A stretch of 64,000 nucleotides of DNA from an uncultured Chloroflexia bacterium (GCA_963748625.1 CAVVJT010000010.1:96001-160000), one strand, 5' to 3'. Shown: positions 56,110 to 63,004, numbered from the stretch's first letter. Notes: generated by a model from the letters alone, not told the origin. Made by a program: numbers and translations.

Positions 56110-56113
<4 letters not shown>

Positions 56114-56886
56114 GCCGCACCTCCCGCGACAGGCGCCGGCCCGGGCGCCACGTTCGTGAAGCTGATCCGACCGGTCTGCGCCCACTCCTCGGCGGACACC
56201 ACCAGCGAGCGGATGATCCCGAGGCCGTCGTCCGAGCCGATGATCGCCTCCACCGCCGTCTCCGGGTGCGGCATCAGGCCCGCCACGTTGCCCGCGGCGT
56301 TGCGCACGCCGGCGATCCCGCGCAGCGACCCGTTGGGGTTGCCTGCGTCATCGGGCCCGGCGACCGAACCGTCCGGGTTCGCGTACCGCCACATCACCTG
56401 GCCGTCGGCCTCGAGGGCATCCAGCGTGGCCTCGTCCGCGTAGTAGCAGCCCTCGCCGTGGGCGACGGGCATGCGCAGCGGGCGCCTGCCCTGGAGCTCG
56501 CGGGTGAACGGCGTGTCGAGGTGCACGGGCAGGAGCGTGACCTCCTTGCAGACGAACCGGAGGCCACGGTTCCGCAGGAGGGCGCCCGGCACGAGGCGCG
56601 CCTCGGCGAGCACCTGGAAGCCGTTGCAGATGCCCAGGACCGGGCCGCCTCGCCCGGCGAAGTCCGCCACCGCCCGCATGACCGGGCTGAACCTCGCAAT
56701 CACACCGGCCCGCAGGTAGTCGCCGTAGGCGAAGCCGCCCGGCAGCAGGATCCCGGCCACGCCGGAGAGGTCCGCGTCCTCGTGCCACAGGACCACGGGC
56801 TCGGCGCCCGCGACCGTCAGGGCATTGACCGCGTCGATGTCACGGTTGGAGCCCGGGAACAGGACGATGCCGACCCGGACCGTCAT
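56110..56886 (-). CDS. purQ: FGAM synthase subunit PurQ
   Basis: [28 protein letters not shown]. Confidence 0.97.
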
Positions 56887-57182
56887 CCGCCCATCCCCGC
56901 GACCGCCCGGGCCTCTGTCTCGCCCAGCGGCTCGACCGTGAACTGTTCCATCAGGGGGTTGGACAAGAGCTCGCCCGCGAGGTGGTCGACGACGGCACGT
57001 GCGGCCGCCTCGTCGACGGCGGTCACGGTGAGCTCCACGCGCCGGCCGACCCGGACGCCGGTCACGCCGGTCACGCCGAGGTGCGGGAGGCTGCGCTCGA
57101 CCGCCTTGCCCTGGGGGTCGAGGATGCCGGGCTTGGGGGTGACGTTGACCGCGAAGCGGAAGGCCGGGCTGGTGTCGCTCAT
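56883..57182 (-). CDS. purS: FGAM synthase subunit PurS
   Basis: KPGILDPQGKAV, VRVGR, LLSNP. Confidence 0.95.
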   Translation of the reverse strand: MSDTSPAFRFAVNVTPKPGILDPQGKAVERSLPHLGVTGVTGVRVGRRVELTVTAVDEAAARAVVDHLAGELLSNPLMEQFTVEPLGETEARAVAGMGG

Positions 57183-58096
57183 CGGGCGAAGACGTCCTCC
57201 GAAAGGTAGCGGGCGAAGCTCGCCCCGGTGATGCGCTCGAATGCCTCGACGTAGCGCCCACGGGTGCCGGCGACCACGTTGTCCGGGAGCTCGGGCCCCG
57301 GTGCCGTCTTGTCCCACGGCTGCTGCTCCAGCCAGTCGCGGACGAACTGCTTGTCGTAACTGGCCTGGGCGCGGCCCGGCTCGTATGCCGCGGCCTCCCA
57401 GAACCGTGACGAGTCGGGGGTCATCACCTCGTCGATGAGGATGAGCTCCCCGTCAGGGGTGACGCCGAACTCGTACTTGGTGTCGGCGAGGATGATCCCC
57501 GCCCGCTCGCAGATGATCGACCCGCGCGCGTAGAGCGCGAGGGACGCGATCATGACCATGTTGGCGAGCCGGTGTCCGATGAGCTCGGCGACGCGACCCA
57601 TCGGGATGTTCTCGTCGTGCTGCCCGGCAGGTGCTTTCCAGGCGGGCGTGAAGACGGGCTCCGGCAGGCGGTCGGACTCGCGCAGGCCAGGCGGCAGCTC
57701 GATGCCGCACACGGTGCCCGAGGCCTGGTACTCCTTCCAGCCCGAGCCGCTGAGGTAGCCTCGAACGACGCACTCCACCGGGAGGACCTCGGCGCGGCGG
57801 CCCAGCATCATCCGCCCACGCAGGTCGGCAAGCACGCGTTCGTCGCCACCGGTGATGTCCTCGGGGAGATCGGCAGGATCCGTGGAGAGCAGGTGGCTCG
57901 CGATGATGTCCGCGGTCTGCGCGAACCAGAACCGCGAGAGGCCGGTCAGGACGCGGCCCTTGTCCGCGATCGGCGTGGGCAGGACCACGTCGAAGGCGGA
58001 CAGGCGGTCGCTCGCCACCAGCAGCAGCCGGTCTTCCCCCACTGCGTACAGGTCGCGGACCTTGCCGGACCGGACGAAGGCGTCAGCGAGCGCCAT
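57179..58096 (-). CDS. purC: SAICAR synthetase
   Basis: GKVRDLY, SDRLSAFD, ECVVRGYLSGS, DTKYEFG, TPDSSRFW. Confidence 0.97.
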   Translation of the reverse strand: MALADAFVRSGKVRDLYAVGEDRLLLVASDRLSAFDVVLPTPIADKGRVLTGLSRFWFAQTADIIASHLLSTDPADLPEDITGGDERVLADLRGRMMLGRRAEVLPVECVVRGYLSGSGWKEYQASGTVCGIELPPGLRESDRLPEPVFTPAWKAPAGQHDENIPMGRVAELIGHRLANMVMIASLALYARGSIICERAGIILADTKYEFGVTPDGELILIDEVMTPDSSRFWEAAAYEPGRAQASYDKQFVRDWLEQQPWDKTAPGPELPDNVVAGTRGRYVEAFERITGASFARYLSEDVFAR

Positions 58097-59447
58097 CGGA
58101 GCCTTCCCGTGCGTGTCCGAGCGGGGTTGACCGCTCGCGGACCTGGGCTTCGAGCGGCTCGAGACGCCCGATGATGGTCGGGACGTGGCGCATGACAACG
58201 TCGTCGTCGAAGCAGGCGTCGAGATCGGCCAGCGGCAGCTTCTGGGCGACCTCGGGATCGGTGGCCAGGAGGCCGTGCAGCGCGACCCGCTCGTCCGCGG
58301 CCCGCAACGCGCTGCGCTGGACGATGGCGTAGGCCTGCTCGCGGCTCATGCCGCCCTTCTCGACGAGGGCCAGGAGCACCCGCGAGGAGGCGTGCAGGCC
58401 ATGCCCGCGGTCGATGTTCTCGCGCATCCGCTCCGGCCGCACGACCAGCCCCTCGACCAGGCCCGTGGTCTTCGTGAGCATGTAGTCGAGCAGGATGGTC
58501 GCGTCGGGGAGGATCACGCGCTCGGCGCTGCTGTGGCTGATGTCGCGCTCGTGCCACAGGGGCTGGTTCTCGAAGGCGGTCGTCGCGTACCCGCGCAGGA
58601 GGCGCGCGAGCCCCGCGATCCGCTCGGACAGGATCGGATTGCGCTTGTGGGGCATCGCCGAGCTGCCCTTCTGGCCGCGCTTGAAGGGCTCCATGACCTC
58701 GGCGATCTCGGTGTGCTGGAGGTTGCGGACCTCGGTCGCGAGGCGCTCCAGGCTGCCGCCGATAATGGCGATGGCGGCGAGGAACGCGGCATGACGGTCG
58801 CGCTGCACGATCTGGGTGCTGACAGGATCGACCCGCAAGCCCAGGTCCGCCAGCACCTCGGCCTCGAGGTCCAGGCCCAGGTGCGAGTACGTCCCCACCG
58901 GGCCGCTGATCTTGCCCGTGCCGATCTCGGCGGTGGCTGCGGCCAGGCGGTCGCGGCCCCGGGCGACCTCGAATGCCCAGCCCGCGCACTTGAGGCCGAA
59001 GGTCGTGGGCTCAGCGTGGACGCTGTGGGTGCGGCCCATCATCACCGTGCCGGCCTCCTGGCGGGCCCGGGCGATGAGCGCGAGGATCAGGCGGTCCGCG
59101 CCGGCCAGGAGCTGCTCCCCCGCCGCCTTGAGCTGGAGCGCGAGGGCGGTGTCGACCACGTCCGAGCTGGTGAGGCCGAGATGCAGGAAGCGTCCCTCGG
59201 GACCCACAGTCTCGGCCACCTGCGACACGAACGCGATCACGTCGTGGTCGGTGGTCTGCTCGATCTCGTTGATCCGCTCGACGTTGACGACGGCGCGTCC
59301 CTCGATCGACGCGAGGGCAGCGGCGGGGACGAGGCCGCGCCTGACCTGCGCCCGGCATACAGCGATCTCCACGTCCAGCATCCGCCCGAAGCGGGCCTCC
59401 TCGGACCACAGGGCACCCATCGCGGGCAGCGTGTAGCGGCGGATCAT
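58083..59447 (-). CDS. purB: Adenylosuccinate lyase
   Basis: HLGLTSSD, GRTH, GSSAMPHKRNP, HERDISHS. Confidence 0.97.
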   Translation of the reverse strand: MIRRYTLPAMGALWSEEARFGRMLDVEIAVCRAQVRRGLVPAAALASIEGRAVVNVERINEIEQTTDHDVIAFVSQVAETVGPEGRFLHLGLTSSDVVDTALALQLKAAGEQLLAGADRLILALIARARQEAGTVMMGRTHSVHAEPTTFGLKCAGWAFEVARGRDRLAAATAEIGTGKISGPVGTYSHLGLDLEAEVLADLGLRVDPVSTQIVQRDRHAAFLAAIAIIGGSLERLATEVRNLQHTEIAEVMEPFKRGQKGSSAMPHKRNPILSERIAGLARLLRGYATTAFENQPLWHERDISHSSAERVILPDATILLDYMLTKTTGLVEGLVVRPERMRENIDRGHGLHASSRVLLALVEKGGMSREQAYAIVQRSALRAADERVALHGLLATDPEVAQKLPLADLDACFDDDVVMRHVPTIIGRLEPLEAQVRERSTPLGHAREGSDGAR

Positions 59448-60769
59448 CGGGCGGCCTCCGGCAGCGTGGCGGCGATGTCGTGGCGGCGGATCATCCCGTC
59501 CCAGGTGATGGCGTCGGCGGCGCGCTCGGCGATGAGCCGGGCCGCGGTCACGTCCGGGCCGCGGCCGGTCACCGCAAGCACGCGGCCGCCATTGGTGCCG
59601 AACCCGCCCTCGGAGCGCTGGCGGGCAACGGTGCCGGCGTGGAAGACGAGGGCGCCGCGGGCGACGGCCTCGTCGAGGCCCTCGATGGGGTCGCCCTTGC
59701 GCGGGTCGTTCGGGTAGCCAGCGGCGGCGAGCACGATGGTGACGGCGGCCTCGTCGCGCGCCGCCAGGCGGGCGGGCAGGTCGGCAGGGAGGCCGCCTGT
59801 TGCGGCAGCCAGCAGGACCGGCGCGAGATCCGCGTCGAGACGCGGCAGGATCGCCTGCGTCTCGGGGTCGCCCAGCCGGACGTTGGTCTCGAGCAGCGCG
59901 GGGCCGGTTGCCGTGAGCATCAGGCCCGCGTACAGGAACCCCTTGAAGGGGATGCCGCGGCTGGCCATCTCGGCCAGGATCGGCTGGTGGACGGTCGCCA
60001 GGATGCGTGCAACATCGGCGTCAGTGAGGTCCGGCAGCGGCGAGTAGGCACCCATGCCACCGGTGTTCGGGCCCTCGTCGTCATCGCACAGGCGCTTGTG
60101 GTCCCGGGCCGCCGGGAGGGCGATGGCTCGGCGGCCGTCGCAGATGGCGATGACGCTGGCCTCGGGGCCCTGGAGCCGCTCCTCGACGACGAGCGCGATC
60201 TCGCCCGGGGTCCGCCCCGCGAGGAAGGACGGCGCAAGCTCGAGCGCCTGCTCGAGCGAGTCCGTGACGATGACGCCCTTGCCCGCGGCGAGACCATCGG
60301 CCTTGAGCACCGCCCCCGCACCTGCCGCGGCGAGATCGTGGATGAAGCCGAGCGCCGCCTGCTCCTCGCCCCCGCTGAAGGCCATCGCCCGGGCCATGCG
60401 GACGCCAGCCGCCTCCGCCACCTCGTGGCAGAACGCCTTCGACGTCTCCAGCCGTGCGGCGGCCGCCACGGGGCCGAACACCGGGATCCCGGCCTCCCGG
60501 AGGGCATCGGCCACCCCGGCGCCCAGCGGCGCCTCCGGGCCGACCACCACCAGGTCGGCCGCCTCGGCCTGCGCAAGCGCCACCACGGCCACGGGAACGA
60601 GCGGGTTCACGGGTGCGCACCTGGTCCCGGGTGTCAGCCCGATGCCGGCGCTCCCGGGGGCCACCACCACCTCGCTGACGCCCTGCTCGCCCGCGAGCTT
60701 CCAAGCGAGCGCATGCTCGCGCCCGCCACTCCCGATGACGAGGATCCGCGACGGCACGTCGAGGGTCAC
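59444..60769 (-). CDS. purD: GAR synthetase
   Basis: GSGGREHAL, VGPEAPL, KADGLAAGKGV, GPNTGGMG, RLGDPE. Confidence 0.96.
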   Translation of the reverse strand: MTLDVPSRILVIGSGGREHALAWKLAGEQGVSEVVVAPGSAGIGLTPGTRCAPVNPLVPVAVVALAQAEAADLVVVGPEAPLGAGVADALREAGIPVFGPVAAAARLETSKAFCHEVAEAAGVRMARAMAFSGGEEQAALGFIHDLAAAGAGAVLKADGLAAGKGVIVTDSLEQALELAPSFLAGRTPGEIALVVEERLQGPEASVIAICDGRRAIALPAARDHKRLCDDDEGPNTGGMGAYSPLPDLTDADVARILATVHQPILAEMASRGIPFKGFLYAGLMLTATGPALLETNVRLGDPETQAILPRLDADLAPVLLAAATGGLPADLPARLAARDEAAVTIVLAAAGYPNDPRKGDPIEGLDEAVARGALVFHAGTVARQRSEGGFGTNGGRVLAVTGRGPDVTAARLIAERAADAITWDGMIRRHDIAATLPEAAR

Positions 60770-60807: not shown

Positions 60808-62115
60808 TCAGGCCGGCTGCTGGGGCCGACGGCGCAGCGGCCGCCAGGCCCGCTCGATGGTCTGCGTCCGCTCCGGGCCGACGCTCACGAAGACGATCGG
60901 CACGCCTGCGTGGTCCTCGAGCGCCTGCACGTAGCGGCGCGCGGCCTCGGGCAGGTCGGCCAGGCTGCGGACGTCGTGGATCGGCTGTTCCCAGCCCTCG
61001 AAGTCCTCGTAGATCGGCACGGCGCGCTCCAGCGCGGAGCCGGACGACGGCCAGGTCTCCACCCGCTTGCCGTCCAGCTCGTAGGCCACGCCGAGCTTGA
61101 TGGTCTCGATGCCCGAGAGGATGTCCAGCTTGTTGAGGACGATGGCGCTCGTGGAGTTGACCGCGACCGCGTAGCGGAGCGGGACGGTGTCGAACCAGCC
61201 GACACGCCGGGCTCGCCCGGTGACGGTGCCGAACTCGTGGCCGCGCTGCGCGATGCCCTTGCCGATCTCGTCGAACAGCTCGGTCGGGAAGGGCCCGGAG
61301 CCGACGCGGGTCGAGTAGGCCTTCATCACGCCGATGACCTCGTCGACCTGGAGCGGCCCGATGCCGCCGCCGGTGCAGGCCCCACCCGCCACCGGGTTGG
61401 ACGAGGTCACGAACGGGTAGGAGCCGTGGTCCAGGTCCAGCAGCGCGCCCTGGGCGCCCTCGAGCAGGACATGGTCGCCGCGGCGCAGGGCGTCCTGGAC
61501 CAGCCACGTGGAGTCGTCCATGTGCGGCTCGATGCGAGCACCCCACTCGAGGCACTGGGCGACGAGGGCGTCCACATCGAAGGTGTCCGCGCCCATCGAC
61601 GCGAGCAGGAGGTTCTTGTCCGGCAGGGCGCGGCCGATCCGCTCGCGCAGGACTGCCTCGTCGACGAGGTCCTCGATCCGGATGCCCAGGCGCCAGGCGC
61701 GGTCGCCGTACGTGGGGCCGATGCCGCGCCCTGTGGTGCCCACCTTGGCACCCGCGAGCCGGGTCTCGTTGGCCTTATCGAGGGCGACGTGGTACGGCAT
61801 GATCACGTGCGCGCTGCGGCTGACGCGGATCTTGCTGGTGTCCACGCCCTTGCCCGCGAGCATGTCCATCTCGCGCAGCAGCGTGGCCGGGTTCACCACG
61901 ACGCCGTTGCCGATGACCGACGTGATGTGCGGATACATGACGCCCGACGGGCACAGCTGCAGCTTGATCGTCTCGTTGCCCACGACGACGGTGTGGCCGG
62001 CGTTGTCGCCGCCCTGGTAGCGCACCACCATGGCGACCTGCTCGGCCAGGAAGTCGGTGGTCTTCCCCTTCCCCTCATCGCCCCACTGGAGGCCGGTGAT
62101 CACGGTCGCAGGCAT
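60808..62115 (-). CDS. purA: Adenylosuccinate synthetase
   Basis: QWGDEGKGK, GGDNAGHT, GTTGRGIGP, EGAQG, EFGTVTGR. Confidence 0.97.
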   Translation of the reverse strand: MPATVITGLQWGDEGKGKTTDFLAEQVAMVVRYQGGDNAGHTVVVGNETIKLQLCPSGVMYPHITSVIGNGVVVNPATLLREMDMLAGKGVDTSKIRVSRSAHVIMPYHVALDKANETRLAGAKVGTTGRGIGPTYGDRAWRLGIRIEDLVDEAVLRERIGRALPDKNLLLASMGADTFDVDALVAQCLEWGARIEPHMDDSTWLVQDALRRGDHVLLEGAQGALLDLDHGSYPFVTSSNPVAGGACTGGGIGPLQVDEVIGVMKAYSTRVGSGPFPTELFDEIGKGIAQRGHEFGTVTGRARRVGWFDTVPLRYAVAVNSTSAIVLNKLDILSGIETIKLGVAYELDGKRVETWPSSGSALERAVPIYEDFEGWEQPIHDVRSLADLPEAARRYVQALEDHAGVPIVFVSVGPERTQTIERAWRPLRRRPQQPA

Positions 62116-62131
62116 CAGGGCAGCCTCCCGG

Positions 62132-62328
62132 AAATGAAACGACCCCGGCGCATCGTGCCGGGGTGCTGGATACACGTCTCCCGCGTCTGCCCGCCGGTGA
62201 CCTGGCGGACCGGGTGACCGAAGGTGCGAACCCGTCTCACGGGGCGGATCCCGCGCCTTCCTCGAGCAACGGTTGTCCCTCCATCGCGGGGCCGGTCGAG
62301 GGCCGGCTTCCGAGGAAGGGCGAGTATA
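62132..62328 (-). promoter_or_regulatory. pur operon promoter and structured leader with a premature intrinsic terminator
   Basis: TATACT at 62323-62328; several stems; ACCCCGGC/GCCGGGGT hairpin plus CGTTTCATTT tail just before the GGGAGG RBS. Confidence 0.7.
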
Positions 62329-62518
62329 CGCGACGGGGGTCCCGTCCGACACGCTGGCGGGGGTTGCGGATCGGGGTCGAGGAGCAGGCCGACGGCGGCC
62401 GCCGCCAGGACTCCCCGCGTAAGCGCGCGGTGAGTGCGGCGTAAGGGCGCGTGCAGTGGCGGCGCCTACCGTGTGCATCCCGTCGCACCGCCCGCCGCAG
62501 CCGAAAGGAGACCCCCGG

Positions 62519-63004
62519 ATGAACCGGGTCATGCTGACCGGTCGCCTCACCCGCGACCCCGAGCTCCGCACCACCGCCGGCGGCAAGGCGGTCGTCCAGT
62601 TCTCGATCGCGTCGCACGAGTTCGTCGGCGGCAAGGAGAAGTCGGAGTTCCACTCGATCGTCGCGTGGAACCGCCTCGCGGAGACGTGCGGCCGCTACCT
62701 GGGCAAGGGCCAGCAGGTGGCCGTCGAGGGGCGGATCCAGACGCGAACCTGGGACGACAGCGATGGCAAGCGCCACTGGCGCACCGAGATCATCGCCTCG
62801 TCCGTCGAGATGCTGGCCGGGCGCCGGCGCCGCGACTACAGCGGTGACCAGGCCGCCGACGCGCTGGAGGCACAGGCCCAGGTGGCGGGTATTCCGCCGG
62901 ACGCGTCGGAGCCGGTGGCCGACGAGAGCGGCTTCGCCGTGCTGCCCGGCACGGACGAGGACGAGGAGGAGGACGAGTTGCTCGAGGAGGCCGTCGCGGC
63001 CTAG
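62519..63004 (+). CDS. ssb: Single-stranded DNA-binding protein
   Basis: MNRVMLTGRLTRDPELR, KGQQVAVEGRIQTR; AAGGAG RBS. Confidence 0.93.
   Translation: MNRVMLTGRLTRDPELRTTAGGKAVVQFSIASHEFVGGKEKSEFHSIVAWNRLAETCGRYLGKGQQVAVEGRIQTRTWDDSDGKRHWRTEIIASSVEMLAGRRRRDYSGDQAADALEAQAQVAGIPPDASEPVADESGFAVLPGTDEDEEEDELLEEAVAA

What the first reader, a model, noticed from the sequence alone, without database searches (positions are those of the whole stretch)
62116..62328. Candidate unrecognised riboswitch or attenuator controlling the pur operon
Seen on the minus strand: TATACT -10, then ~200 nt with a long first stem (CCUUCCUCG/CGAGGAAGG enclosing CCCUC/GAGGG). A second multi-stem domain may be closed by GGAUCCGC/GUGUAUCC and contains CCCG/CGGG, ACCUUCGGU and GUCCGCC/GGCGGGC hairpins. 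A loop CCCGCG could pair with either of two downstream CGCGGG. A terminator lies just before the purA RBS. Known: pur operons are run by guanine, PRPP (ykkC 2b) and ZTP riboswitches, but I cannot find their hallmark sequences here.
Basis: partly seen in the sequence, partly recalled or inferred. Interest (0 to 1): 0.7.

Follow-up and report, generated by a model that had tools for sequence, protein, structure and literature searches.

The report
New structured RNA leader before purine operon
A roughly 200-base folded RNA sits between the promoter and the first gene of a purine-synthesis operon in a group of uncultured soil bacteria, matches no catalogued RNA family, and looks like a new metabolite-sensing switch whose ligand is still unknown.

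Summary
The finding is real. On the minus strand, 62116-62328 is the 5' leader of purA, the first gene of a purA-purD-purB-purC-purQ operon. It runs from a -10 box (TATACT) to an intrinsic terminator just before the ribosome site.

The single sequence does not fold better than shuffles (z -0.67). Comparison with relatives decides the case:
- A covariance model finds one copy in 107 of 151 genomes of the same family. A broader model finds it in 42 of 44.
- Every scorable copy lies directly upstream of purA: 60/60, 84/84 and 74/78, where the other 4 contigs end too soon.
- Four helices covary in three alignments: 82-86% of cells paired against 73-78% in shuffles and 30-48% in slid controls, with 0 of 500 shuffles as high.
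- Rfam 15 gives no match for the window or for 20 diverse copies. Five literature searches found nothing.

Record titles place it in uncultured Chloroflexota, class Limnocylindria. It was not found in the sister family or outside the class.

Best reading: a new riboswitch-type transcription attenuator for purine synthesis. Ligand and polarity are not shown.

The parts
62323..62328 (-). -10 promoter box TATACT. The inferred transcription start is about 7 nt downstream, near 62316.
   Evidence: Sequence. T, A, C and T of the hexamer are invariant in 30 same-genus leaders. In the 78 of the 84 family copies that had enough upstream sequence, TATACT positions are 87-97% conserved and preceded by G (86%), giving TGnTATACT. 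Positions further upstream are only 33-60% conserved. The window itself has GCG, not TGn, before the hexamer. The start site is inferred, not measured.
62311..62319 (-). P1 5' strand (CCUUCCUCG here; family core CCUCGA).
   Evidence: RNAalifold on 30 genus sequences. In some searches, 4 of 6 P1 pairs show changes on both sides and 79% and 74% of cells are paired. This is the weakest of the four helices, because two sequence subtypes lack the 3' partner.
62291..62307 (-). P1a, a variable hairpin inside P1 (GCCGG ... CCGGC here).
   Evidence: MFE of the window. Relatives carry hairpins of different sequence at this place (alignments). It was not put through pair counting because the region aligns poorly.
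62277..62287 (-). Conserved purine-rich element (GCGAUGGAGGG; family core GAGGA); partner unknown.
   Evidence: Conserved in the alignments. Pairing with the 5' UCCUC was tested and has no covariation support.
62256..62264 (-). P1 3' strand (CGAGGAAGG). In this genome its last five bases overlap the P2 5' strand.
   Evidence: The overlap means the 9-bp P1 of this genome and P2 cannot both form fully. In most relatives P1 is shorter and the two helices abut.
62253..62259 (-). P2 5' strand (AAGGCGC).
   Evidence: Pairs with 62221-62227 around a conserved C-A or G-A mismatch. Other genera carry GAGU/ACUC, GGGCGC/GCGACC or GGGGCU/GGCUCC at this place (read by eye). The combined P2+P3 helix has 11 of 12 pairs with changes on both sides and 10 of 12.
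62245..62250 (-). P3 5' strand (GAUCCG).
   Evidence: Pairs with 62229-62234. This is the strongest covariation in the motif; for example, one pair occurs as CG 38, UA 27, UG 13 and GC 3.
62235..62244 (-). Conserved 10-nt P3 loop, CCCCGUGAGA (family YCCCGUGAGR).
   Evidence: Each of the 8 central positions is at least 90% identical in 84 sequences. The loop is unpaired in the covarying model. A pseudoknot with the downstream GGG is compatible with the sequences (82 of 84, 83 of 84 and 69 of 83 cells paired) but is invariant, so it cannot be tested.
62229..62234 (-). P3 3' strand (CGGGUU).
62221..62227 (-). P2 3' strand (GCACCUU). Together with the next bases (CCUUCG) it can also pair with the ribosome site in this genus.
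   Evidence: Searches support P2. RNAalifold on genus sequences paired CCUUCG with CCGGAGG. In other genera the motif ends up to about 340 nt before purA, and one sequence subtype lacks CCUUC, so this pairing is not a family feature.
62189..62210 (-).
   Evidence: 8 of 8 pairs show changes on both sides. Mean fold z is -2.2 against shuffles in 82 sequences.
62165..62188 (-). J, a conserved single-stranded junction (GGGAG..GUSUAUCCAGG) running into the terminator.
   Evidence: GGG, GU, UAUCC and GG are each at least 90% (some 75%) identical in 84 sequences. The distance from the P3 loop to this element is nearly fixed at 55-64 nt.
62132..62164 (-). Intrinsic terminator: stem-loop 62164-62142 plus U-rich tail 62141-62132.
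   Evidence: Pattern scan (8 pairs, 7 of them GC, 7-nt loop). Inner pairs covary: 6 of 8 pairs and 5 of 8. The three outer C-G pairs are invariant or change on one side only. Mean fold z is -3.4, and 99% of 81 sequences are below -1.
62124..62129 (-). Ribosome-binding site GGGAGG of purA.
   Evidence: Sequence; CCGGAGG is conserved in the genus.
60808..62115 (-). purA (adenylosuccinate synthetase, 435 aa), the first gene controlled.
   Evidence: Pfam PF00709, E 2.7e-170.
56110..60700 (-). Downstream operon genes: purD (59444-60700), purB (58083-59447), purC (57179-58198) and a purQ-like amidotransferase (56110-57261).
   Evidence: Pfam GARS_N/A/C, Lyase_1 + ADSL_C, SAICAR_synt and GATase_5. 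The same order and strand follow purA in relatives wherever the contig extends far enough.

Best explanation
This is a previously uncatalogued cis-regulatory RNA, most likely a metabolite-binding riboswitch. It controls transcription of a purine-biosynthesis operon (purA-purD-purB-purC-purQ...) by premature termination.

Transcription starts just after a conserved -10 box. The first ~150 nt fold into a multi-stem sensor:
- P1 with an internal variable hairpin;
- a long irregular hairpin P2-P3 capped by a conserved 10-nt loop (YCCCGUGAGR);
- a GC-rich hairpin P4;
- a conserved unpaired junction (GGGAG..GUCUAUCCAGG).

The junction runs directly into a strong intrinsic terminator that sits before the purA ribosome site. 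Binding of a purine-pathway metabolite would decide whether the terminator forms.

Shown: the promoter element, the four covarying helices, the conserved unpaired blocks, the terminator, the exclusive position before purA, and the lack of any Rfam match.

Inferred: that RNA polymerase stops there, that a small molecule is the signal, and which one. My guess is an OFF switch answering to a purine end product (adenine or guanine base or nucleotide, or ppGpp), about 60:40 over an ON switch answering to a precursor or shortage signal such as PRPP. The guess rests on two points. Biosynthetic operons are usually end-product repressed. The invariant GGG of the junction could pair either with the invariant CCC of the P3 loop or with the invariant CCC at the base of the terminator.
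For: 1. Conservation starts at the -10 box and runs to purA. Upstream positions are 33-60% conserved, the -10 positions 87-97%.
2. One copy per genome is found in 107 of 151 genomes and 40 of 49 genera of the family with model R1 (the tally includes the unpublished G141). Model R2 finds it in 42 of 44.
3. Every copy with enough flanking DNA is directly upstream of purA on the same strand: 60/60 (includes L057 from the unpublished G141), 84/84 and 74/78, where the other 4 contigs end within 150 nt.
4. Covariation appears in three alignments. A5: 85.8% of cells paired against 78.1% in shuffles and 38-46% in slid controls, with 27 of 37 pairs changing on both sides. A6: 84.4% against 73.2% and 35-43%, with 29 of 34 pairs. 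A7 (metagenome contigs): 82.5% against 73.9% and 30-48%, with 27 of 34 pairs. In all three, 0 of 500 shuffles reached the observed values.
5. RNAalifold on A6, run without my structure, recovers the P3, P4 and terminator cores, with 12 of 14 pairs carrying compensatory changes.
6. There are long invariant unpaired stretches (P3 loop, junction) and a near-constant 55-64 nt spacing between them. This is typical of a tertiary fold or binding pocket.
7. The terminator hairpin is far more stable than shuffles (z -3.4), is followed by a U-run, and has covarying inner pairs.
8. No Rfam 15 family matches. ZTP and purine riboswitches were not found in this genome, so purine control here is not explained by those two known RNA classes.
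Against: - No ligand binding, transcript ends or expression data exist. The only RNA-library data were short contigs that show nothing about starts or stops.
- No antiterminator could be identified. Junction plus terminator 5' strand folds no better than shuffles (z 0.02). P4 3' strand through terminator 5' strand does not either (z +0.64). None of the alternative pairings tested covaries. The switching mechanism and its polarity are therefore guesses.
- The P1 domain as a whole is not more stable than shuffles (z -0.08), and P1 is missing in two sequence subtypes.
- The shuffle control ignores relatedness of the sequences. Alignments A6 and A7 were fitted to the model's structure, which favours it. 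A5 was fitted to an earlier model that already contained P1, P4 and the terminator.
- The motif is tied to a single gene context, so the context cannot narrow the ligand. It is equally what a dedicated RNA-binding regulator protein would give.
Confidence: 0.6

Rival explanations
1. It is an attenuator operated by a trans-acting factor. An RNA-binding regulatory protein (in the manner of PyrR on pyr leaders or TRAP on trp leaders), or another RNA, binds the conserved loop and junction and sets termination. The metabolite is sensed by the protein, not the RNA.
For: The motif occurs once per genome and only before purA, as expected for a dedicated regulator-operator pair. No antiterminator or ligand-dependent alternative fold could be derived from sequence. 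The conserved purine-rich blocks (GAGGA, GGAAGG, GGGAG) could be protein contact sites.
Against: The conserved, covarying region is about 150 nt with four helices and several invariant unpaired blocks at fixed spacing. From my own knowledge, this is much larger and more intricate than known protein-binding attenuator sites and is typical of riboswitch aptamers. No candidate regulator gene is linked to the motif. The upstream neighbour is ssb in the window, and at least one relative carries something else there: a SAM-riboswitch-like element on the opposite strand in L161. No search for such a protein was made.
Confidence: 0.2
2. It is a structured leader that senses nothing. For example, it could be a constitutive pause or termination site that sets a fixed low read-through, an mRNA-stabilising 5' structure, or a processing site.
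For: Only structure and position are shown; nothing here demonstrates switching. The terminator is very stable (z -3.4), and no competing structure was found.
Against: A stabiliser or fixed terminator needs only helices. It does not explain about 30 near-invariant unpaired nucleotides kept across genera whose purA proteins are only 59-75% identical, nor the fixed loop-to-junction spacing. A strong unconditional terminator before an essential biosynthetic operon would be wasteful.
Confidence: 0.08
3. It is a highly diverged member of a known riboswitch class, such as a ykkC-type PRPP/ppGpp aptamer, a ZTP aptamer or a purine aptamer, that the Rfam models miss.
For: A few short strings recall ykkC-type aptamers (GGUCCG, CGGGAGA); this resemblance is recalled, not tested.
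Against: cmscan with permissive filters up to E = 10 on the leader gave only two chance matches, to a microRNA and an archaeal S15 leader. With E up to 1 on 20 diverse leaders, no riboswitch family fell on the motif. The helix layout (P1 domain, long P2-P3 hairpin with a 10-nt loop, P4, junction) and the length of about 150 nt do not fit the architectures I recall for those classes.
Confidence: 0.07

Closest known systems
Guanine/adenine (purine) riboswitch, Rfam RF00167, as in the Bacillus subtilis pur operon and xpt leaders
   Same: Both are 5' leader RNAs in front of purine genes, followed by an intrinsic terminator. The presumed logic is feedback control of purine supply.
   Different: There is no sequence or structure match. 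The purine aptamer is, as I recall, a ~70-nt three-way junction closed by P1. This RNA is ~150 nt, made of consecutive stem-loops with a conserved 10-nt loop and a conserved 3' junction. The ligand is unknown.
PRPP and ppGpp riboswitches (ykkC subtype 2) and the ZTP riboswitch (RF01750)
   Same: All are RNA switches that sit before de novo purine genes and sense pathway signals. PRPP and ZTP act as ON switches.
   Different: ZTP gave no match in this genome. No ykkC-clan or ZTP match falls on the leader. The architecture differs, and taxonomic range is confined to one class of Chloroflexota.
Orphan riboswitch candidates found by comparative genomics (Rfam 'Cis-reg' motifs named after the downstream gene; recalled examples are purD and raiA)
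   Same: The evidence is of the same kind: conserved intergenic RNA, covarying helices, invariant unpaired nucleotides, a fixed gene context, an expression platform and no known ligand.
   Different: It is not among the 4227 families of Rfam 15. Five full-text searches found no description. It is restricted to uncultured Limnocylindria.
PyrR- and TRAP-type protein-mediated transcription attenuators
   Same: A leader with a terminator precedes a nucleotide or amino-acid biosynthesis operon, with one site per regulon.
   Different: As I recall, those sites are short hairpins or triplet repeats with an obvious terminator/antiterminator pair. Here the conserved RNA is large and complex, and no antiterminator was found. 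No protein partner is known.

Membership tests
Any Rfam 15 family (including Purine RF00167, ZMP-ZTP RF01750, the ykkC clan, T-box, SAM) | Score against the family covariance model at or above its gathering threshold | tested here: not met
   There are 0 matches at gathering thresholds in the 64-kb window. The best matches in 61900-62700 at E up to 10 are mir-59 (16 bits against 80) and S15-Halobacteria (15.6 bits against 49). In 20 diverse relatives nothing falls on the motif. RF01750 and RF00167 were not found in the whole genome, while the control genomes did give matches.
Riboswitch (generic kind) | Conserved, structured RNA with compensatory base changes | tested here: met
   82-86% of cells paired against 73-78% in shuffles (0 of 500 as high) and 30-48% in slid controls. 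Between 27 and 29 pairs show changes on both sides. RNAalifold gives independent support.
Riboswitch (generic kind) | Fixed position in the 5' UTR of functionally related genes | tested here: met
   The motif is upstream of purA in 60/60, 84/84 and 74/78 copies, with the remaining 4 contigs too short to score. purD-purB-purC-purQ follow.
Riboswitch (generic kind) | Expression platform adjoining the aptamer | tested here: met
   There is an intrinsic terminator with a U tail, covarying pairs and z -3.4. The alternative (antiterminator) structure was not found.
Riboswitch (generic kind) | Direct, selective binding of a small molecule that changes gene expression | not testable with these tools
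   This needs in-line probing or ITC and transcription assays.
Leader-peptide (ribosome-mediated) attenuator | Conserved short ORF in the leader with a start codon and codon-like conservation | tested here: not met
   This rests on reading the alignments by eye; no separate statistic was computed. The ATG in GCGAUGG of the window is AAG in many relatives. The possible UUG frame ending at the loop UGA is out of frame in the subtype with one extra base. Variation is not at synonymous positions.
Protein-dependent attenuator (PyrR/TRAP type) | Known protein-binding consensus or triplet repeats, and a linked regulator gene | not tested
   No repeat pattern was seen by eye in the alignments. No search for a regulator protein was made.

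The most novel reading that the evidence does not exclude
The RNA is the aptamer of a riboswitch class for a purine-pathway metabolite that has no validated natural riboswitch, such as AMP/ADP/ATP (adenylate charge), IMP or adenylosuccinate. purA, the committed step to AMP, is always the first gene controlled, and the whole de novo operon follows it. If so, it would be RNA-based sensing of the adenylate branch point, found only in an uncultured class of soil Chloroflexota.
Probability: 0.25. Interest if true: 0.8.

Novelty: new member of a known kind. Interest (0 to 1): 0.62.

Why it matters
Purine synthesis is controlled by RNA switches in many bacteria, but the known classes (guanine/adenine, PRPP, ZTP) were not found here. 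If this leader binds a metabolite, it adds a new aptamer fold and possibly a new ligand to the short list of purine sensors.

It would also give a first look at gene regulation in Limnocylindria, a soil and freshwater lineage known to me only from metagenome-assembled genomes.

The candidate is unusually ready for testing:
- Boundaries are defined by a conserved promoter and a terminator.
- About 200 natural variants are in hand.
- The downstream operon gives a short list of plausible ligands.

Tried and rejected
- Single-sequence folding: not informative (z -0.67).
- Promoter scan: the consensus scan needing a -35 box found nothing. The promoter was recognised only from conservation of the -10 box.
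- Leader peptide: rejected, by eye from the alignments. The start codon is not conserved, the frame breaks in one subtype, and the variation is not codon-like.
- Anti-Shine-Dalgarno model (CCUUCG pairing with CCGGAGG): holds only in the window's genus. Elsewhere the motif ends up to ~340 nt before purA, and one subtype lacks CCUUC.
- Alternative pairings tested without covariation support:
  - 5' UCCUC with GAGGA;
  - pseudoknot of loop CCCGU with RCGGG;
  - Y-R pair closing the loop (all three);
  - 5' GUCCU with AGGWC before the terminator;
  - junction GGG..GAC with terminator GUCCCC.
- Thermodynamic tests for an antiterminator: z 0.02 and +0.64.
- Averaged base-pair probabilities of truncated transcripts gave no consistent partner for the terminator 5' strand.
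- A naive covariation ranking was dominated by one-sided changes and lineage effects. The strongest off-model pair (first loop base with a junction purine, CG 34 / UA 33 / UG 5) is probably lineage-linked.
- Weak partial model hits elsewhere in genomes (model positions ~100-198, E 1e-5 to 0.01) were not reproduced. The best of them (L193) is not matched by model R2.
- Sequencing runs: no run held half of the stretch's sampled words (best DNA run 0.38); RNA-library runs held 0.05-0.13, all as contigs. One 196-nt contig of a run that is probably DNA spans 62105-62299. Nothing about expression, starts or ends can be concluded.
- Earlier findings of this scan: two look-ups returned nothing.
- Script problems: one script stopped with an error after printing its main table.

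Full report
**What is at the coordinates.** Read on the minus strand, the stretch 62328-62116 contains, in order:
- TATACT at 62328-62323;
- about 200 nt of GC-rich sequence;
- a hairpin followed by a U-rich tail at 62164-62132, which the pattern scan calls terminator-like (2 such sites in the 900 bases scanned, this one and one on the same strand at 62528-62514, against 0.3 expected from shuffles);
- GGGAGG at 62129-62124;
- the ATG of a 435-aa ORF at 62115.

Pfam identifies that ORF as adenylosuccinate synthetase (PF00709, E 2.7e-170). The next ORFs on the same strand are purD, purB, purC and a purQ-like amidotransferase. An ssb gene diverges on the plus strand.

**Is it more than chance?** Not from this sequence alone. 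The minimum-energy fold (-110.7 kcal/mol) is matched by 50 of 200 dinucleotide shuffles (z -0.67). The case rests on relatives.
- BLASTN with the 441-nt intergenic region finds the leader in 35 of 36 other genomes of the same genus at 70-81% identity, and in 0 of 24 genomes of a sister family.
- In an alignment of 30 genus sequences, conservation begins at the -10 box and continues to the ATG. Further upstream it collapses.

**Distribution.**
- Model R1 (built from the genus) finds the motif in 107 of 151 genomes and 40 of 49 genera of the family (this tally includes one genome, G141, flagged as unpublished).
- In the order, R1 finds it in 88 of 108 genomes of the family and 0 of 42 of the sister family, whose genomes are only ~1.1 Mb.
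- Model R2 (49 diverse sequences, my structure) finds it in 42 of 44 family genomes and 2 of 50 genomes of one other family of the class (one genus, 2 of 9). It finds none in three further families of the class (0/6, 0/49, 0/1).
- In an even draw of the phylum, the only matches were in the window's own family: G000 itself and all 3 other family genomes, with none in the other 147 genomes.
- With filters off, R2 finds nothing better than 6.9 bits around purA in four representatives of the sister and other families. The sister family has only a short purA leader.
- A pattern search of species-representative genomes returned 93 stretches, 80 of them listed. Their record titles are almost all Chloroflexota, Candidatus Limnocylindria or Limnocylindrales MAGs. 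R2 matched 84 of the 88 sources given to it, which were those 80 loci plus 8 other loci. The unmatched loci were the three titled Hymenobacter, Bryobacterales and Holophagaceae, and one weak earlier hit.
- I infer that the host is an uncultured member of class Limnocylindria. The family name CSP1-4 is recalled from GTDB, not given by any tool.

**Gene context.**
- purA lies directly downstream on the same strand in 60 of 60 loci (includes L057 from the unpublished genome).
- The same holds in 84 of 84.
- Among 78 R2 matches on 80 metagenome contigs, it holds in 74. The other 4 contigs end within 150 nt.
- No copy precedes another gene.
- purD, purB, purC and purQ follow in the same order wherever the contig is long enough.
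- The gap from the model's 3' end to the purA start ranges from overlap to ~340 nt, and is mostly under 60 nt.

**Promoter.** In the 78 of the 84 family copies that had enough upstream sequence, the bases just before the RNA read TGnTATACT. G is at 86% and the hexamer positions at 87-97%, while positions -45 to -6 are only 33-60% conserved. A few lineages carry TGCTATCAT or TGGTATAGT a few bases further upstream. This is an extended -10 promoter without a conserved -35. The window has GCG rather than TGn before TATACT. A start near 62316 is inferred from the usual spacing, not measured.

**Structure.** Reading the diverse alignments suggested these elements:
- P1 (CCUCGA/UCGAGG) enclosing a variable hairpin and a conserved GAGGA block;
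- P2 (AAGG-C-GC/GC-A-CCUU, with a kept C-A or G-A mismatch), directly abutting P1;
- P3 (5-8 bp of very variable sequence);
- a 10-nt loop YCCCGUGAGR;
- P4 (GC-rich hairpin);
- a conserved junction GGGAG..GUSUAUCCAGG;
- the terminator.

Pair counts for this structure:

| Alignment | Sequences | Cells paired | Shuffled | Slid controls | Pairs changing on both sides | Shuffles reaching any measure |
|---|---|---|---|---|---|---|
| A5 | 49 | 85.8% | 78.1% | 38-46% | 27 of 37 | 0 of 500 |
| A6 | 84 | 84.4% | 73.2% | 35-43% | 29 of 34 | 0 of 500 |
| A7 (metagenome contigs) | 71 distinct | 82.5% | 73.9% | 30-48% | 27 of 34 | 0 of 500 |

The A5 row counts the 34 structural pairs plus the 3 pseudoknot pairs tested in the same call. 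A7 shares 4 sequences with A6.

Per helix in A6, pairs with changes on both sides are P1 4 of 6, P2+P3 11 of 12, P4 8 of 8 and terminator 6 of 8. RNAalifold, run on A6 without my structure, returns the P3, P4 and terminator cores (14 pairs, 12 with compensatory changes).

Caveats: the shuffle control ignores relatedness, and A6 and A7 were aligned to the model that carries this structure. The slid controls and the RNAalifold run speak against an artefact.

Unpaired conservation is striking:
- The eight central loop bases are each at least 90% identical in 84 sequences.
- So are most of GGG..G..GU.UAUCC.GG and the first CCC of the terminator.
- The loop-to-junction distance is 55-64 nt in all sequences matched by the looser patterns.

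- Upheld: the first stem, the GUCCGCC/GGCGGGC hairpin (P4) and the terminator.
- Not upheld: CCCUC/GAGGG, GGAUCCGC/GUGUAUCC, the ACCUUCGGU mini-hairpin, and the CCCGCG-CGCGGG alternatives.
- Wrong register: for CCCG/CGGG it is the flanks that covary, and the C-rich run is loop.
- In this genome P1 is unusually long (9 bp) and overlaps P2 by five bases, so the two compete here. In most relatives they merely abut.

**Mechanism.**
- Shown: a conserved promoter, a conserved multi-helix RNA with invariant unpaired blocks, and a very stable, covarying intrinsic terminator (z -3.4 in 81 sequences) placed before the first gene of the operon.
- Inferred: that transcription stops there conditionally.

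I could not find the competing structure:
- Junction plus terminator 5' strand has z 0.02.
- P4 3' strand through terminator 5' strand has z +0.64.
- The explicit alternative pairings do not covary.
- Averaged pair probabilities of truncated transcripts give no consistent partner.

Two hints remain. First, the outer three C-G pairs of the terminator are invariant or change on one side only while the inner pairs covary, which suggests a second constraint on them. Second, the terminator's 3' strand is most complementary to the P3 loop region, because loop and terminator 5' strand share a CCCC(G) run.

A strand-exchange model fits these hints. The junction GGG would pair with the loop CCC in the folded sensor, or with the terminator CCC otherwise. 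This cannot be tested by covariation because every partner is invariant. I therefore commit only to a riboswitch-type transcription attenuator, with OFF polarity (end-product repression) somewhat more likely than ON.

The anti-Shine-Dalgarno pairing that RNAalifold drew in the genus is not general. A leader peptide is excluded by reading the alignments.

**Comparison with what is known.**
- Rfam 15 (4227 families) has no match at gathering score in the window.
- Only two chance matches appear at E up to 10 in the leader.
- None falls on the motif in 20 diverse relatives at E up to 1. The only real hit there is a partial SAM riboswitch on the opposite strand of one locus.
- ZTP and purine riboswitches were not found in this genome, although both models found their controls.
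- Full-text searches found no description. The search for purA + riboswitch candidate + Actinobacteria listed one paper, a review on Clostridioides difficile riboswitches. The search for adenylosuccinate synthetase + riboswitch + orphan listed three unrelated papers. Three further searches (purA + RNA motif + Chloroflexi; 'upstream of purA' + riboswitch; Limnocylindria + riboswitch) returned none. I saw listings and abstracts only and read none of these papers. Subscription-only papers and supplements are outside what could be searched.

It works like the terminator-coupled purine, PRPP or ZTP switches of other bacteria, but it fails the membership test for each. It is best filed as a new candidate riboswitch family.

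**Verdict.** This is a real, conserved, structured 5' leader of the purine operon, new to the catalogues and confined to one uncultured lineage. Riboswitch is the best-supported reading (about 0.6). A protein-operated attenuator is the main rival (about 0.2). Ligand and polarity are open.

Noticed in passing
G000 contig C1:26348-26984 (locus L036): The same assembly holds a second copy of the leader (about 90% identical) with a purA 95% identical over 353 residues. With 7.7% estimated contamination, this may be a second strain binned into the MAG rather than a true duplication.
   Followed up: partly
window 62340-62400 (- strand) and alignment A1 columns ~50-68: A motif CCGATCCGCAACCC is conserved in many genus members about 30-45 nt upstream of the -10 box, in otherwise unconserved sequence. 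It could be a transcription-factor site, or belong to the divergent ssb promoter. It is not conserved across the family.
   Followed up: no
L161 576-651 (+): A partial SAM riboswitch match (40.9 bits, gathering score 44.4, cut by the end of the locus) lies on the opposite strand just upstream of the purA leader in one relative. In that genus the divergent neighbour is therefore probably a SAM-regulated gene, not ssb.
   Followed up: no
L201 (record titled Verrucomicrobiia), L221 and L268 (Anaerolineaceae), L247 (Dormibacterota): These contigs carry a full motif plus purA; where the contig is long enough (L201, L221) the rest of the pur operon follows, and L247 has purD. The titles probably reflect loose labelling or mis-binning rather than true occurrence outside Limnocylindria.
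   Followed up: partly
window 62256-62264 versus 62253-62259: In this genome and its second copy, the 5' strand reads CCUUCCUCG instead of the genus consensus GGUCCUCGA. This lengthens P1 to 9 bp at the expense of P2, a species-specific shift in the balance between two helices that share the GGAAGG run.
   Followed up: no
alignments A5/A6, P2 region: The motif comes in at least three sequence subtypes at P1/P2: UCGAGGAAGGCGC with GCACCUUCG; a variable linker plus GGGCGC with GCGACC; and GAGUCGGCG with CGCACUC. The last two lack the P1 3' strand, so P1 may be replaced there by pairing of the 5' end with the GAGGA block.
   Followed up: partly
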